A program made the position numbers. Source: Escherichia coli (GTDB lineage: Bacteria > Pseudomonadota > Gammaproteobacteria > Enterobacterales > Enterobacteriaceae). From it: 64,000 nt of DNA. This document shows, one piece after another, positions 16,701 through 25,700 of this stretch (its first letter is position 1; each line of letters starts with the position of its first letter). The stretch is taken from the NCBI RefSeq assembly GCF_002854065.1, contig NZ_CP024147.1, one strand, 5' to 3'.

Positions 16701-19700
16701 GCGGTCCTGTTAGCAGATAGCTTTAAATCCGGTGGCAAAGTGCTTTCCTGCGGCAACGGCGGCTCCCATTGCGACGCCATGCACTTTGCCGAAGAGTTGA
16801 CCGGTCGCTACCGTGAAAACCGTCCGGGCTACCCGGCGATTGCTATTTCTGACGTTAGTCATATTTCATGCGTCGGTAACGATTTCGGTTTCAATGATAT
16901 TTTCTCCCGTTACGTTGAAGCGGTAGGTCGCGAAGGCGATGTACTGCTGGGGATCTCCACCTCCGGTAACTCTGCAAACGTGATCAAAGCGATCGCAGCG
17001 GCGCGTGAGAAGGGAATGAAAGTGATCACCCTGACCGGTAAAGACGGCGGCAAAATGGCTGGCACGGCGGATATCGAAATTCGCGTACCGCACTTTGGTT
17101 ATGCCGACCGCATTCAGGAGATTCACATTAAAGTGATCCATATCCTGATCCAGTTGATTGAAAAAGAGATGGTTAAGTAAGTCTGGCGTAGGCCGGATAA
17201 GACGTTTACGCCGCATCCGGCAATTGTGCACCGATGCCTGATGCGACGCTGACGCGTCTTATCATGCCTACAAATCTGTACGCGAACCGTAGGCCGAATA
17301 ATGCGTTCACGCCGCATCCGACCTGAAAATTCTTAAATCAATCTTCGCCGGGGGCCATGCGCTCCCGCTGTTGTGGAGGTTACCCATGTGCGAATTGCTC
17401 GGGATGAGCGCCAACGTCCCTACCGATATCTGCTTTAGTTTCACCGGTCTGGTGCAGCGTGGTGGTGGAACCGGGCCACATAAAGATGGCTGGGGCATTA
17501 CCTTTTACGAAGGTAAAGGCTGTCGCACATTTAAAGATCCGCAACCCAGCTTTAACTCACCTATCGCCAAACTGGTCCAGGACTACCCGATAAAATCCTG
17601 TTCGGTGGTGGCTCATATTCGCCAGGCTAATCGGGGCGAGGTGGCGCTGGAAAATACTCACCCATTTACCCGCGAGTTATGGGGGCGTAACTGGACTTAT
17701 GCCCATAACGGACAACTGACGGGCTACAAATCACTGGAAACCGGCAACTTCCGCCCGGTAGGCGAAACCGACAGTGAAAAAGCCTTCTGCTGGCTCCTGC
17801 ATAAATTAACGCAGCGTTACCCGCGCACACCGGGCAACATGGCGGCGGTATTTAAATATATCGCCTCACTGGCGGATGAACTGCGGCAGAAGGGCGTTTT
17901 CAACATGCTGCTTTCGGACGGGCGCTATGTAATGGCGTATTGCTCGACTAATTTACACTGGATCACCCGCCGCGCGCCGTTTGGCGTGGCAACGTTGCTG
18001 GATCAGGATGTGGAAATCGACTTCAGCTCGCAGACCACACCGAATGATGTGGTCACGGTGATTGCGACACAGCCGCTGACGGGCAATGAAACCTGGCAAA
18101 AAATTATGCCAGGCGAATGGCGCTTATTTTGCCTCGGGGAGCGTGTAGTTTGATGCCAGCTGTGGTTGCACAACTTCGTGGCTTAACGGCTTGCTGACCA
18201 CGTAACGACCATTGACCACAGAAACGGTCGGTGGCTTACGGGTTTGCTCAAAGTAGTCGTAACCCGGCTTCAGTTGCTCCCAGAAGTCCTTAAAGTTGGA
18301 ATATTTGTGGCGCTTCATATTAGCGTCGGTCATGCGGAACGGGTAAATGCTCACTTGCACGCTCGGCTGACCAAATACCAGTGCGCCAGTAACGAACTGG
18401 AAAATCTCGTCAATGCCCTGATTGGTCATCGCGTAGCAGCCGATGGAAACACAATCGCCGTGGATCATCAGGTATTTCCCTTCATAACCATGCGCACGGT
18501 CATAGGCATTGGGGAAACCAATATTAATCGCTTTGTAGTAACGGCTGTCTGGTTTTAACTGATTACGCTGGATGCTATAAAACCCTTCCGGGCTTTTGAA
18601 ATCGCCCTGACGCTGTTTTGGCCCTAAGCCGCCGGAATATTTACAGATTTTATAGCTGTCGAGCAGTTGATATTGCTCGCCCATTTTGACGTAGAGATCG
18701 AGCGTACGTTCTTCCTTGAAGATCTGGATGTAGACAGGGGATCCCATCAACTGCTGCTTATACTCTTTGCTCACTGGCGTGGTCGAGCTACTGCTGCCCA
18801 GCAAACCGGCAAACGAAACGCACGGGATCAACAACATCGCAAGAATTAATGCGATTTTACGCATACTGCTTATTCCTTGATAAAACGGTTACACACGCCA
18901 GGACGGCAAAATGGATCCCAAATCGGAATAGTCTGGATTTGGAAGGCTCACATTATCACCAAAAGAGTTTTACGCAAGCCTGTCGGCGCAGGGTTTACAA
19001 ATTTCATCGGCAGCGGGCTTTACCCAAAGAGCGCCGCGTGAGTTCCAGTTCTCTCAAATCGTAAAAGTTTATCGGTAAGTTTGTAAATCAGGATCCAGTC
19101 CGGTTCGACATGAGCATCGCGATAACCTTTCCATGAACCTTGCAGCGGGTGGTCTTTATAAACAGCTGGAAGCGGTAAAGTATTATTGATAAGAAGCGTC
19201 ATAAGATATTTCAATTTATTCATATCCTTATGACGCTTTTGTGCAAGTTTTACATCCTTTGAAAATTGTCCCGAGTATTCAATATCCCTTTGAATCATAT
19301 TTAAATTCCTAATTTATCAAATAAATCATCGGCGTCTTTGGCCTTATGAACATCAACGCCAGCTTCGCTGTTTTTGATTGATTGAATGGTTAATTGATTA
19401 GGCTCGCGTAAATCAAACGGCAATGCCTTTTCACGCGCGACCTTTGTGAGGGTTATGCGAACCAGGTCAGAGATGGTCAGCCCCATCCCGGCCAGTACGT
19501 CCGCCGCCTGATTCTTCAGATCTTCATCGATTCGGGCGCGAACAAACGCGTTAGCAGCCATTGGGGTATCTCCTGTGCTGTATATTTATTCAGCTTGAAT
19601 TGTAGCTCAAATGAGCAACAGCGACAATCTATGAGTAATTTAATAAACGGATGTTTTTACATAATTCACTGAAATATATTTATTAATTTTATAATAATGG

Positions 19701-22700: not shown

Positions 22701-25700
22701 TCAGCACATATTGCTGGAAGGCAGCATCGGCGCTCAGGTTGTATTTGAAGATCCCGATACAGACACCGCCGATCAGGTTGATCGCCAGAATCATCATCCC
22801 GGCGATGGCGTCCCCGCGCACAAACTTTGATGCCCCGTCCATCGCGCCGTAGAAATCGGCCTCGCTGGCGACATCTTTACGCCGGGTTTGCGCCTGCGCC
22901 TGGTTGATCAACCCGGCGTTAAGGTCGGCGTCAATCGCCATCTGTTTGCCGGGCATCGCGTCCAGGGTAAAGCGGGCAGAAACCTCGGAAATACGCTCGG
23001 CCCCTTTGGTGACGACGATAAAGTTGATTGTCAACAGCGTCAGTCAATCCGAGCGTGAAAGCATTATCGCCGCGCTGCACGGGCAGTCGATTTTTAACGG
23101 TGGCGGGCTGTCGCCGTTAAATAACATCAGCCCGACTCTTCCGCCGAAACCTGCTACCGTGGCGGTGCCGGAAGAGACGGAGAAAAAAGCGCGCGACGTC
23201 AACGAGAAAACGGCGCTGCTGAAGAAGAAATCCGCCACCGAGCTTGGCGAGCTGGCAACCAGTATCAACACCATCGCCCGCGATGCGCATATGGAAGCAA
23301 ATCTGGAGATGGAGATTGTCCCGCAGGGATTACGCGTACTGATTAAAGACGACCAGAACCGCAATATGTTTGAACGCGGCAGCGCGCAGATTATGCCGTT
23401 CTTTAAAACGCTGCTGGTGGAGCTCGCGCCAGTGTTCGACTCGCTCGATAACAAAATTATTATTACCGGGCATACCGATGCGATGGCCTACAAAAACAAT
23501 ATCTACAACAACTGGAACCTTTCGGGTGACCGCGCGCTTTCGGCTCGTCGGGTGCTGGAAGAGGCCGGAATGCCGGAAGATAAAGTGATGCAGGTGAGCG
23601 CGATGGCGGACCAGATGCTGCTGGATGCCAAAAATCCGCAAAGCGCGGGCAATAGGCGTATTGAAATTATGGTGCTGACCAAAAGTGCGTCCGATACGCT
23701 GTATCAATACTTTGGTCAGCATGGGGATAAAGTGGTGCAGCCGCTGGTGCAAAAGCTGGATAAGCAGCAGGTGCTTTCGCAGCGAACGCGCTAAATGCTG
23801 AATCTTTACGCATTTCTCAAACCCTGAAATCACTGTATACTTTACCAGTGTTGAGAGGTGAGTAATGCGTAAAATCATTCATGTGGATATGGACTGCTTT
23901 TTCGCCGCAGTGGAGATGCGCGACAATCCCGCCCTGCGCGATATCCCTATTGCTATTGGCGGCAGCCGCGAACGTCGGGGGGTGATCAGCACCGCCAATT
24001 ATCCCGCGCGTAAATTTGGCGTACGCAGCGCTATGCCGACAGGGATGGCGCTCAAATTATGCCCACATCTCACCTTGCTTCCGGGGCGCTTTGACGCCTA
24101 CAAAGAAGCCTCAAATCATATCCGTGAAATCTTCTCGCGCTACACCTCTCGCATTGAACCGTCGTCACTGGATGAGGCTTATCTCGATGTCTCCGACAGC
24201 GTCCATTGCCACGGTTCTGCGACCCTCATCGCCCAGGAAATCCGCCAGACGATTTTCAGCGAGCTGCAACTGACGGCGTCTGCGGGCGTGGCACCAGTAA
24301 AGTTTCTCGCCAAAATCGCCTCCGACATGAATAAACCCAACGGCCAGTTTGTGATTACGCCGGCAGAAGTTCCGGCATTTTTACAAACCTTACCACTGGC
24401 AAAAATCCCCGGCGTCGGCAAAGTCTCGGCGGCAAAACTGGAAGCGATGGGGCTGCGGACCTGCGGTGATGTACAAAAGTGTGATCTGGTGACGTTGCTT
24501 AAACGCTTTGGCAAATTTGGCCGTATTTTATGGGAGCGTAGTCAGGGCATTGACGAGCGCGACGTTAACAGCGAACGGTTGCGAAAATCCGTCGGCGTGG
24601 AACGCACGATGGCGGAAGATATTCATCACTGGTCTGAATGTGAAGCGATTATCGAGCGGCTGTATCCGGAACTTGAACGCCGTCTGGCAAAGGTAAAACC
24701 TGATTTACTGATTGCTCGCCAGGGGGTGAAATTAAAGTTCGACGATTTTCAGCAAACCACCCAGGAGCACGTCTGGCCGCGGCTGAATAAAGCTGACTTA
24801 ATCGCCACCGCGCGTAAAACCTGGGATGAACGCCGCGGCGGGCGAGGTGTGCGTCTGGTGGGGCTGCACGTGACGTTGCTTGACCCGCAAATGGAAAGAC
24901 AACTGGTGTTGGGATTATGATGTATACTATTATGTCTATTCTGGTGTGCATTATTATGAGGGGATCACTGTATGCATCGAATTCTCGCTGAAAAATCGGT
25001 CAATATCACTGAGTTACGTAAAAACCCAGCTAAATACTTTATTGATCAACCGGTTGCGGTTCTTTCTAATAATCGCCCCGCAGGATATCTCTTAAGTGCC
25101 AGCGCATTCGAAGCGTTAATGGACATGCTTGCTGAACAAGAGGAGAAAAAGCCCATAAAGGCGCGCTTCCGTCCAAGTGCTGCAAGATTAGAGGAAATTA
25201 CACGCCGCGCTGAACAATATCTTAATGATATGACGGATGATGATTTCAATGACTTTAAGGAATAAGGATGCGGGTATTCAAAACAAAACTTATTCGCCTG
25301 CAACTTACAGCAGAGGAACTTGATGCGTTAACGGTGGATTTTATTTCCTATAAGCGTGACGGTGTTTTGCCAGATATATTTGGTCGCGATGCACTCTACG
25401 ACGACTCGTTTACCTGGCCATTAATCAAATTTGAGCGAGTTGCTCATATTCATCTGGCAAATGTGAATAATCCATTTCCGCCACAGTTGCGCCAATTCAG
25501 CAGAACGAATGACGAATCGCATTTGGTATATTGTCAGGGTGCGTTTGATGAGCAAGCATGGTTGCTCATTGCCATTCTGAAACCTGAACCTCATAAACTG
25601 GCTCGAGATAACAACCAAATGCATAAAATTGGGAAAATGGCAGAAGCGTTTCGCATGCGTTTTTGAATTTATATTATGAATAACATACAAATAAGAAACT

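What the first reader, a model, noticed from the sequence alone, without database searches (positions are those of the whole stretch)
19578..23848. SOS boxes in front of dinJ-yafQ and dinB-yafNOP
LexA-box matches precede both the dinJ-yafQ toxin-antitoxin pair (minus strand CTGAATAAATATACAG at 19578-19593) and dinB (CTGTATACTTTACCAG at 23833-23848). Together with the SymE-like gene at 12131-12364 this neighbourhood is dense in SOS-linked toxin modules. These are known sites.
Basis: established knowledge. Interest (0 to 1): 0.2.

Follow-up and report, generated by a model that had tools for sequence, protein, structure and literature searches.

The report
Known LexA boxes at dinJ, dinB
The two short palindromes are real, strong matches to the binding site of the DNA-damage repressor LexA, identical to the long-known sites in front of dinJ-yafQ and dinB in E. 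coli K-12, so the finding is correct but ordinary.

Summary
I scored the window with a LexA matrix built from 19 published sites that excludes both boxes. They rank 1st and 2nd in the 64 kb window, with heterology index 6.2 and 8.2. Validated sites score 1.2-11.5, and about 0.07 such sites are expected by chance. Both are identical to E. coli K-12. The dinB box overlaps the predicted -10. The dinJ box lies just after the -10, beside a separate conserved inverted repeat (GCTCA-NN-TGAGC) that is most likely DinJ's own operator.

Papers describe both boxes. dinB and yafNO are SOS-induced from the dinB promoter. LexA binds the dinJ promoter, but no damage induction of dinJ has been seen in E. coli.

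Two side claims fail:
- The SymE-like ORF has no LexA box (best index 20).
- yafP is broken here by nested insertion sequences.

One small addition: the dinJ box occurs at the same spacing in a sub-clade of dinJ-yafQ cassettes, including Salmonella at a different locus, but is absent from 71-87% identical relatives.

Verdict: already known, low interest.

The parts
19578..19593 (-). LexA operator core in front of dinJ. Read in the gene's direction it is CTGAATAAATATACAG. The 20-mer spans 19576-19595.
   Evidence: Sequence. Heterology index 6.2, rank 1 in the window. Identical to K-12. Ends 16 nt before the dinJ ATG.
19599..19627 (-). Predicted sigma-70 promoter of dinJ-yafQ: -35 TTGTCG at 19627-19622, 17-nt spacer, -10 TACAAT at 19604-19599.
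   Evidence: Consensus scan. The -10 is conserved as TACAnT in 27 of 29 homologous loci.
19605..19616 (.). Inverted repeat GCTCA-NN-TGAGC abutting the -10. This is the likely operator of the DinJ ribbon-helix-helix repressor, separate from the LexA box.
   Evidence: Present with at most 2 substitutions in 27 of 29 upstream regions (the window plus 28 DinJ-homologue loci) from several phyla. The homologues share the N-terminal strand MAANAFVRARID.
19301..19561 (-). dinJ, the antitoxin gene (86 aa).
   Evidence: Pfam RelB, E 3.4e-34. Annotated as dinJ in E. coli genomes.
19020..19298 (-). yafQ, the mRNA interferase toxin gene (92 aa).
   Evidence: Pfam YafQ_toxin, E 4.5e-32.
23833..23848 (+). 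LexA operator core in front of dinB, CTGTATACTTTACCAG. The 20-mer spans 23831-23850.
   Evidence: Sequence. Heterology index 8.21, rank 2. Same sequence as the published dinB box ATCACTGTATACTTTACCAGTGTTG (PMC3009722 Table 4).
23814..23841 (+). Predicted dinB promoter: -35 TTCTCA at 23814-23819, 16-nt spacer, -10 TATACT at 23836-23841. The -10 lies inside the LexA box.
   Evidence: Consensus scan.
23865..24920 (+). dinB, DNA polymerase IV (351 aa).
   Evidence: Pfam IMS, IMS_C and IMS_HHH. RefSeq annotation.
24972..25666 (+). yafN (24972-25265) and yafO (25268-25666), a toxin-antitoxin pair co-transcribed with dinB.
   Evidence: Pfam PhdYeFM_antitox and YafO_toxin. No terminator-like site between dinB and yafN. 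The mitomycin C response of yafNO requires the dinB promoter (PMC2814082).
25676..25933 (+). The 5' part of yafP, cut by an insertion. The rest of yafP resumes at about 27963.
   Evidence: BLAST against K-12: K-12 positions 7459-7467 are duplicated on either side of the insertion.
25934..27963 (.). IS1 (25934-26568 plus 27825-27963) carrying a 1258-bp IS3-family element (26569-27826).
   Evidence: Self-BLAST and comparison with strain CUWW06. InsA and IS3-family ORFs.

Best explanation
Both sequences are genuine operators for the LexA repressor, the same ones known from E. coli K-12.

At dinB, a LexA dimer sits on a box that contains the -10 hexamer and blocks RNA polymerase. After DNA damage, RecA-stimulated self-cleavage of LexA frees the promoter. 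dinB, yafN and yafO are then transcribed together. In this strain the transcript then runs into the IS1 that cuts yafP.

At dinJ, the box lies between the -10 and the ribosome-binding site, over the expected transcription start. The same promoter also carries a separate, widely conserved inverted repeat (GCTCA-NN-TGAGC) against the -10. DinJ or DinJ-YafQ most likely binds there to repress its own operon. The dinJ promoter would then have two locks: removing LexA alone would not open it while DinJ is present. That would explain why LexA binds the promoter yet no SOS induction has been seen in E. coli.

Shown here: the sequences, their scores, their positions, and their conservation. Taken from papers: LexA binding and induction data. 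Inferred: the two-lock logic, and the assignment of the inverted repeat to DinJ.
For: The boxes have heterology index 6.2 and 8.21 and rank 1 and 2 in the window, inside the range of validated sites. About 0.07 such sites are expected by chance.

Both sit in the predicted core promoters and both are identical to K-12. The exact 40-mer around the dinJ box occurs in 2709 E. coli records, and the one around the dinB box in 4245. The natural variants seen move toward the consensus. The LR-24 allele CTGTATAAATATACAG scores 3.3 and is found in 210 genomes. Strain E06 has TACTG in place of CACTG at dinB.

From papers:
- The dinB box lies upstream of a UV-induced gene (PMC3009722).
- yafNO induction by mitomycin C disappears when the dinB promoter is deleted (PMC2814082).
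- LexA binds the dinJ promoter (PMC4996492).

Comparative evidence: Salmonella (85% identical DinJ, at a different locus between rtcA and malT) and a 90% identical homologue from an unidentified organism both carry a box at exactly the same spacing. Their CTGT/ACAG ends are kept while the centres differ, with scores of 7.08 and 3.13. The GCTCA-NN-TGAGC repeat is kept in 27 of 29 upstream regions, the window among them, alongside an identical DinJ DNA-reading strand in the homologues.
Against: No SOS induction of dinJ-yafQ has been found in E. coli (PMC1891008; PMC4996492). dinJ does not appear among the UV-induced genes of PMC3009722.

The Salmonella dinJ induction (7.8-fold with nalidixic acid, PMC8072944) may be read-through from the upstream sigma-54 RNA-repair operon rather than loss of LexA repression (PMC9879122).

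Two relatives inside the box-bearing clade have a decayed box or none, with scores of 10.4 and 17, so selection on the box is not universal.

Promoter positions come from consensus scans, not mapped transcription starts. DinJ binding to the inverted repeat was not tested here.
Confidence: 0.85

Rival explanations
1. The dinJ 16-mer is bound by DinJ itself and serves as the autorepression operator of the toxin-antitoxin pair. LexA would then be irrelevant in vivo.
For: A review table lists CTGAATAAATATACAG as the DinJ site at dinJ-yafQ, and the LexA consensus TACTG(TA)5CAGTA as the DinJ site at cspE (PMC11610964). No SOS induction of dinJ is seen in E. coli.
Against: DinJ homologues with the identical N-terminal DNA-reading strand MAANAFVRARID lack any CTG-N10-CAG upstream, with best scores of 15-28. 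They keep GCTCA-NN-TGAGC at the -10 instead. Within the box-bearing clade the conserved positions are the LexA contact triplets, not the centre. The one homologue with a changed strand (L031) also has a different repeat.
Confidence: 0.08
2. The dinJ box is a leftover that still binds LexA in the test tube but no longer has any regulatory effect in E. coli. Only the dinB box is functional.
For: No damage induction has been reported for E. coli dinJ. Boxes are decayed or absent in close relatives, at the P0013 and P0027 loci. dinJ-yafQ is absent from about 39% of E. coli genomes and is destroyed by insertion sequences in some strains.
Against: The box is the best LexA match in the window. It is kept at a fixed position in cassettes at three different genomic sites. 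A common E. coli allele is even closer to the consensus. If DinJ masks the effect, ordinary induction experiments would show nothing even with a working box.
Confidence: 0.2
3. Both matches are chance palindromes in AT-rich intergenic DNA.
For: The bare pattern CTG-N10-CAG is not enriched in the window: 19 matches against 12.95 expected.
Against: Matrix scores of 6.2 and 8.21 are expected 0.07 times per 64 kb. The chance of either score within the 209-bp AT-rich dinJ-yafL spacer is about 1e-4 to 6e-4. Both lie on core promoters, both are identical to published sites, and dinB induction is experimentally documented.
Confidence: 0.01

Closest known systems
E. coli K-12 dinB (dinP) LexA operator and the dinB-yafN-yafO-yafP operon
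   Same: The box and its flanks are identical (PMC3009722). Gene order and spacing are the same. SOS control of yafNO comes through the dinB promoter (PMC2814082).
   Different: Here yafP is split by an IS1 that carries an IS3-family element. The region is about 96.5% identical to K-12 overall.
E. coli K-12 dinJ LexA box (predicted by Lewis et al. 1994; tested by Fernandez de Henestrosa et al. 2000; LexA binding shown by Ruangprasert et al. 2014, as cited in PMC1891008 and PMC4996492)
   Same: The 16-mer, the promoter and the DinJ inverted repeat are all identical.
   Different: Nothing at the site itself. The closest complete genome, CUWW06, has an extra IS1 between dinJ and yafQ that this window lacks.
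Salmonella enterica dinJ-yafQ, downstream of the rsr-rtcBA RNA repair operon
   Same: DinJ is 85% identical. The -10, the 5-nt gap, the LexA box, the ACAGGAGA ribosome-binding site and the 16-nt distance to the ATG all match.
   Different: The chromosomal site differs (rtcA-malT). The box centre differs (TATAGAGACA). The operon is also transcribed from an upstream sigma-54 promoter (PMC9879122).
symE-symR, the SOS-induced type I toxin system of E. coli K-12
   Same: The ORF at 12131-12364 matches Pfam SymE_toxin and is annotated as SymE family in RefSeq.
   Different: It has no LexA box upstream and no RNA family match there. It is 77 aa, which by my recollection is shorter than K-12 SymE (113 aa). 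It lies beside an Rhs fragment at a different locus.

Membership tests
Gammaproteobacterial LexA operator (SOS box) | Palindromic core CTG-N10-CAG with an AT-rich centre | tested here: met
   Both sites.
Gammaproteobacterial LexA operator (SOS box) | Matrix similarity within the range of validated sites | tested here: met
   Heterology index 6.2 and 8.21 against 1.2-11.5 for 19 validated sites scored leave-one-out, using a matrix independent of both sites.
Gammaproteobacterial LexA operator (SOS box) | Position overlapping the core promoter or transcription start | tested here: met
   The dinB box contains the predicted -10. The dinJ box starts 5 nt after the predicted -10. Both promoters are predicted, not mapped.
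Gammaproteobacterial LexA operator (SOS box) | LexA protein binds the site | not testable with these tools
   Literature only: LexA binds the dinJ promoter (PMC4996492, citing Ruangprasert 2014). dinB is an established LexA target (PMC2814082, PMC7167474).
Gammaproteobacterial LexA operator (SOS box) | The downstream gene is induced by DNA damage in a LexA-dependent way | not testable with these tools
   Literature: yes for dinB and yafNO (PMC3009722, PMC2814082). No evidence for E. coli dinJ (PMC1891008, PMC4996492).
[quoted passage not shown] | RelB/DinJ antitoxin followed closely by a YafQ toxin, with an inverted-repeat operator at the promoter | tested here: met
   Pfam RelB and YafQ_toxin. 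2-nt gap between the genes. Conserved GCTCA-NN-TGAGC at the -10.
dinB-yafNOP operon | dinB, yafN, yafO and yafP intact, in one direction, with no terminator after dinB | tested here: not met
   dinB, yafN and yafO are intact and there is no terminator-like site between dinB and yafN. yafP is interrupted at 25934.
SymE-SymR SOS-induced type I toxin system (for the ORF at 12131-12364) | SymE-family protein | tested here: met
   Pfam SymE_toxin, 34.6 bits against a cutoff of 29.
SymE-SymR SOS-induced type I toxin system (for the ORF at 12131-12364) | LexA box at the promoter | tested here: not met
   Best heterology index in 12300-12700 is 20.0.
SymE-SymR SOS-induced type I toxin system (for the ORF at 12131-12364) | Antisense SymR RNA over the 5' end | tested here: inconclusive
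   No Rfam family reached its threshold there. A divergent antisense RNA cannot be excluded.

The most novel reading that the evidence does not exclude
The LexA box is not a feature of the E. coli locus. It is a built-in part of one mobile sub-clade of dinJ-yafQ cassettes, whose DinJ proteins share the motif KNQAADVL. This sub-clade gained about 7 extra leader bases that form a LexA operator next to the ancestral DinJ operator, and it carries that dual-repressor promoter wherever it lands: yafK-yafL in E. coli, rtcA-malT in Salmonella, and elsewhere. The promoter would work as an AND gate, opening only when LexA is cleaved and DinJ is also degraded. That would resolve the old puzzle of a good LexA box with no SOS induction.
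Probability: 0.45. Interest if true: 0.3.

Novelty: already known. Interest (0 to 1): 0.12.

Why it matters
It matters little as a discovery. Both operators have been described in E. coli K-12 since the 1990s, and this window simply carries identical copies. Three points are useful. The scan confirms the annotation. It corrects the idea that the SymE-like gene belongs to the SOS regulon. It also separates the LexA box from the likely DinJ operator, which some review tables merge. The comparative observation gives a cheap, testable explanation for why E. coli dinJ has a strong LexA site but no reported SOS induction: the box travels with a sub-clade of dinJ-yafQ cassettes and sits beside a deeply conserved DinJ repeat.

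Tried and rejected
- The bare CTG-N10-CAG and CTGT-N9-CAG pattern counts are not enriched, so I replaced them with a matrix score.
- After the first comparative scan I concluded that the dinJ box was Escherichia-only. That was wrong.
- I first took the Salmonella dinJ induction (PMC8072944) as functional proof. I downgraded it because dinJ-yafQ there is co-transcribed from a sigma-54 promoter (PMC9879122).
- The putative LexA box at the yafN promoter reported in PMC2814082 scores 25 or worse here. That agrees with the paper's own result that it does not mediate induction.
- The other low-scoring sites (30963, 52437, 39664, 53722) are all intragenic.
- The inverted-repeat finder with 6-nt seeds missed the 5+5 DinJ repeat. 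It came out of the cross-species comparison instead.
- The primary papers of Ruangprasert 2014, Armalyte 2012, Wade 2005 and Hu 2012 were not held.
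Full report
**Observation.** The + strand reads CTGTATATTTATTCAG at 19578-19593, which is CTGAATAAATATACAG on the minus strand, and CTGTATACTTTACCAG at 23833-23848. 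ORF listing and Pfam scans identify the surrounding genes:

| Gene | Coordinates | Strand | Pfam match |
|---|---|---|---|
| yafQ | 19020-19298 | - | YafQ_toxin |
| dinJ | 19301-19561 | - | RelB |
| dinB | 23865-24920 | + | IMS domains |
| yafN | 24972-25265 | + | PhdYeFM_antitox |
| yafO | 25268-25666 | + | YafO_toxin |
| yafP (truncated) | 25676 onward | + | Acetyltransf_10 (GNAT), 22.4 bits, just under the 23.6 cutoff |

Each box ends exactly 16 nt before its start codon.

**Is it more than chance?** The bare pattern CTG-N10-CAG is not enriched, with 19 matches against 12.95 expected. I therefore built a symmetrised heterology-index matrix (Berg-von Hippel form) from 19 LexA sites printed in PMC3009722 Tables 4 and 7. 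I left dinB out, and dinJ is not in that set. The dinJ site scores 6.2 and the dinB site 8.21, ranks 1 and 2 of all positions in the window. The next best site scores 10.7. Leave-one-out scores of the validated sites span 1.2-11.5. Sites at 8.21 or better are expected 0.07 times per 64 kb. Only 12 of 300 first-order Markov simulations contain any, and the chance of either score within the AT-rich 209-bp dinJ-yafL spacer is about 1e-4 to 6e-4. The four next-best sites are all intragenic.

**Promoter context.**
- *dinB.* The consensus scan gives -35 TTCTCA at 23814-23819, a 16-nt spacer, and -10 TATACT at 23836-23841. The -10 lies inside the box.
- *dinJ.* The scan gives -35 TTGTCG at 19627-19622, a 17-nt spacer, and -10 TACAAT at 19604-19599 on the minus strand. 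The box starts 5 nt after the -10 and ends 3 nt before the AGGAGA ribosome-binding site.

Both placements are typical for repression by occlusion. The promoters are predictions, not mapped transcription starts.

**Identity with known sites.** The region matches E. coli. The best record is strain CUWW06 at 100% identity, and K-12 is about 94.5-96.5% identical. Both boxes and their flanks are identical to K-12.
- The dinB sequence equals the published dinB box ATCACTGTATACTTTACCAGTGTTG, found upstream of a UV-induced gene (PMC3009722).
- PMC1891008 states that a LexA site downstream of the dinJ-yafQ promoter was predicted by Lewis et al. 1994, with no evidence for SOS induction.
- PMC4996492 states that LexA binds the dinJ promoter but that induction after damage has not been seen.
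- PMC2814082 shows that mitomycin C induction of yafNO disappears when the dinB promoter is deleted.

**Population data.** The dinB promoter is in 5414 of 5426 complete E. coli genomes. The dinJ promoter is in 3323. The exact 40-mer around each box is in 4245 records for dinB and 2709 for dinJ. A second dinJ allele, CTGTATAAATATACAG, has both half-sites at consensus, scores 3.3, and occurs in 210 genomes. A dinB variant in strain E06 changes CACTG to the consensus TACTG. In strain EC96 an ISKox3 element has landed inside the dinJ box and removed the operon.

**What else is at the dinJ promoter.** I collected DinJ homologues from one-genome-per-species contigs (30 loci), from plasmids, and by exact-protein look-up. 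In 27 of 29 upstream regions compared (the window plus 28 of these loci), from Enterobacterales, Methylococcus, Ferrovum, Methylorubrum and an acidobacterial MAG, a repeat GCTCA-NN-TGAGC sits directly against a TACAnT -10. In the window it is GCTCAAATGAGC at 19605-19616. These proteins share the N-terminal strand MAANAFVRARID, the part of a ribbon-helix-helix repressor that reads DNA. The one homologue with a changed strand (L031) has a different repeat. I infer that this repeat, not the LexA box, is DinJ's own operator. As I recall it, the abstract of Ruangprasert et al. 2014 describes 'a single inverted repeat overlapping the -10', which fits. The review table in PMC11610964 gives the LexA 16-mer as the DinJ site, citing Prysak 2009. 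That is probably a conflation.

**Distribution of the dinJ LexA box.** Relatives with 71-87% identical DinJ have no box, with best scores of 15-28. These come from Yersinia, Xenorhabdus, Photorhabdus, Pectobacterium, Pseudocitrobacter, Enterobacter and Klebsiella plasmids, and a Salmonella prophage copy. A sub-clade whose DinJ carries KNQAADVL does have the box, always at the same spacing: -10, 5 nt, box, then the ACAGGAGA ribosome-binding site, with 16 nt to the ATG.

| Locus | Box, or best match, at this position | Heterology index |
|---|---|---|
| E. coli (window and K-12) | CTGAATAAATATACAG | 6.2 |
| Salmonella, between rtcA and malT | CTGTATAGAGACACAG | 7.08 |
| 90% identical homologue, unidentified organism | CTGTATGAACATACAG | 3.13 |
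| Second Salmonella copy (P0013) | decayed, ATG...CAG | 10.4 |
| Metagenomic copy (P0027) | none | 17 |

The CTGT/ACAG ends are kept while the centres differ, as expected if LexA contacts are under selection. The leader in this sub-clade is 7 nt longer than in relatives without a box. The operator therefore seems to belong to the cassette rather than to the E. coli locus. My first reading, 'Escherichia only' (after), was wrong and is corrected in the notebook.

**A caveat on function.** Salmonella dinJ rises 7.8-fold with nalidixic acid (PMC8072944). However, dinJ-yafQ there is co-transcribed with the RNA repair operon from a sigma-54 promoter that is itself activated under SOS conditions (PMC9879122). 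This is not clean evidence for LexA control.

**Mechanism.** For dinB-yafNO the classical model holds. LexA occludes the -10, RecA-stimulated LexA cleavage derepresses, and yafNO follows by read-through. There is no terminator-like site after dinB, and PMC2814082 gives the genetic proof. For dinJ-yafQ I propose a two-lock promoter, with DinJ at 19605-19616 and LexA at 19578-19593. Loss of LexA alone would have little visible effect while DinJ is present. This is inference. It accounts for binding without induction, and the reporter experiments listed under next steps can test it.

**Side claims.**
- The ORF at 12131-12364 matches SymE_toxin and is annotated as SymE family in RefSeq. It has no LexA box within 400 nt (best score 20) and no Rfam hit there. 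It lies next to an Rhs fragment and an IS3-family element. Its SOS link is not supported.
- yafP is cut at 25934 by an IS1 that is itself split by a 1258-bp IS3-family element, and yafP resumes at about 27963.
- The short distance between the two toxin-antitoxin modules owes much to the known deletion between lfhA and lafU, which removed the Flag-2 flagellar cluster (PMC6993521). The fused remnants lie at 21325-23794.

**Verdict.** The side claims about the SymE-like gene and an intact yafP are not supported. Interest is low. The only mildly new point is that the dinJ LexA box is carried by the cassette and sits beside a conserved DinJ operator.

Noticed in passing
window 19605-19616; loci L006-L054: The inverted repeat GCTCA-NN-TGAGC abutting a TACAnT -10 is conserved upstream of DinJ homologues across several phyla, together with an identical N-terminal strand MAANAFVRARID. 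It is probably the DinJ operator, distinct from the LexA box.
   Followed up: yes
L003 (E. coli LR-24), equivalent to window 19578-19593: A second E. coli allele of the dinJ box, CTGTATAAATATACAG, has both half-sites at consensus. It scores 3.3 against 6.2 and occurs in 210 complete genomes.
   Followed up: yes
L004 (E. coli EC96); L001 9405-10102 (CUWW06): Insertion sequences hit this operon repeatedly. ISKox3 sits inside the dinJ LexA box in EC96, with dinJ-yafQ lost. In CUWW06 an IS1 lies between dinJ and yafQ, separating the toxin gene from its antitoxin and promoter.
   Followed up: partly
window 25934-27963: yafP is interrupted by an IS1 that is itself interrupted by a 1258-bp IS3-family element. 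A 9-bp stretch of yafP (K-12 locus L002 positions 7459-7467) is duplicated on either side of the insertion.
   Followed up: yes
window 9315-10572, 26569-27826, 42197-42964, 47789-48556, 49624-50391: The window is rich in insertion sequences: two inverted, identical copies of the IS3-family element (each with an Rfam isrC hit) and three further IS1 copies. This suggests a Shigella-like or heavily IS-invaded E. coli lineage.
   Followed up: partly
window 10912-12364: An Rhs C-terminal fragment, a small ORF with no Pfam match (11823-12086), and a 77-aa SymE-family ORF lie next to yafV. The SymE-like gene has no LexA box and no detectable SymR.
   Followed up: partly
window 21325-23794: Truncated lfhA (minus strand) and lafU (plus strand) overlap near 22904-23034. 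This is the known scar of the Flag-2 lateral-flagella deletion, which brings dinJ and dinB within about 4 kb of each other.
   Followed up: partly
window 17191-17268 and 20520-20597: Rfam naRNA4 (REP/BIME-derived) matches. The second lies between yafL and the REP-associated transposase gene rayT (20696-21193).
   Followed up: no
window 23806-23820 and 23851-23865: A 15-nt imperfect inverted repeat (80% complementary) brackets the dinB LexA box and spans from the -35 to the start codon. Its significance is unknown.
   Followed up: no
window 24921-24971: The 'putative LexA box' reported at the yafN promoter (PMC2814082) scores very poorly with the matrix (25 or worse). This agrees with that paper's finding that SOS induction comes only from the dinB promoter.
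   Followed up: yes
L040-L042 (Salmonella, rtcA-dinJ-yafQ-malT): Salmonella dinJ-yafQ carries a LexA box at the same spacing as E. coli, but directly downstream of the sigma-54 RNA repair operon. Published 'SOS induction' of Salmonella dinJ therefore cannot be assigned to LexA without further genetics.
   Followed up: partly
window 30963-30980, 52437-52454, 39664-39681, 53722-53739: Weaker LexA-like matches (heterology index 10.7-12.7) all lie inside coding regions, including gpt and a prophage-like methyltransferase ORF. They are probably not operators.
   Followed up: partly
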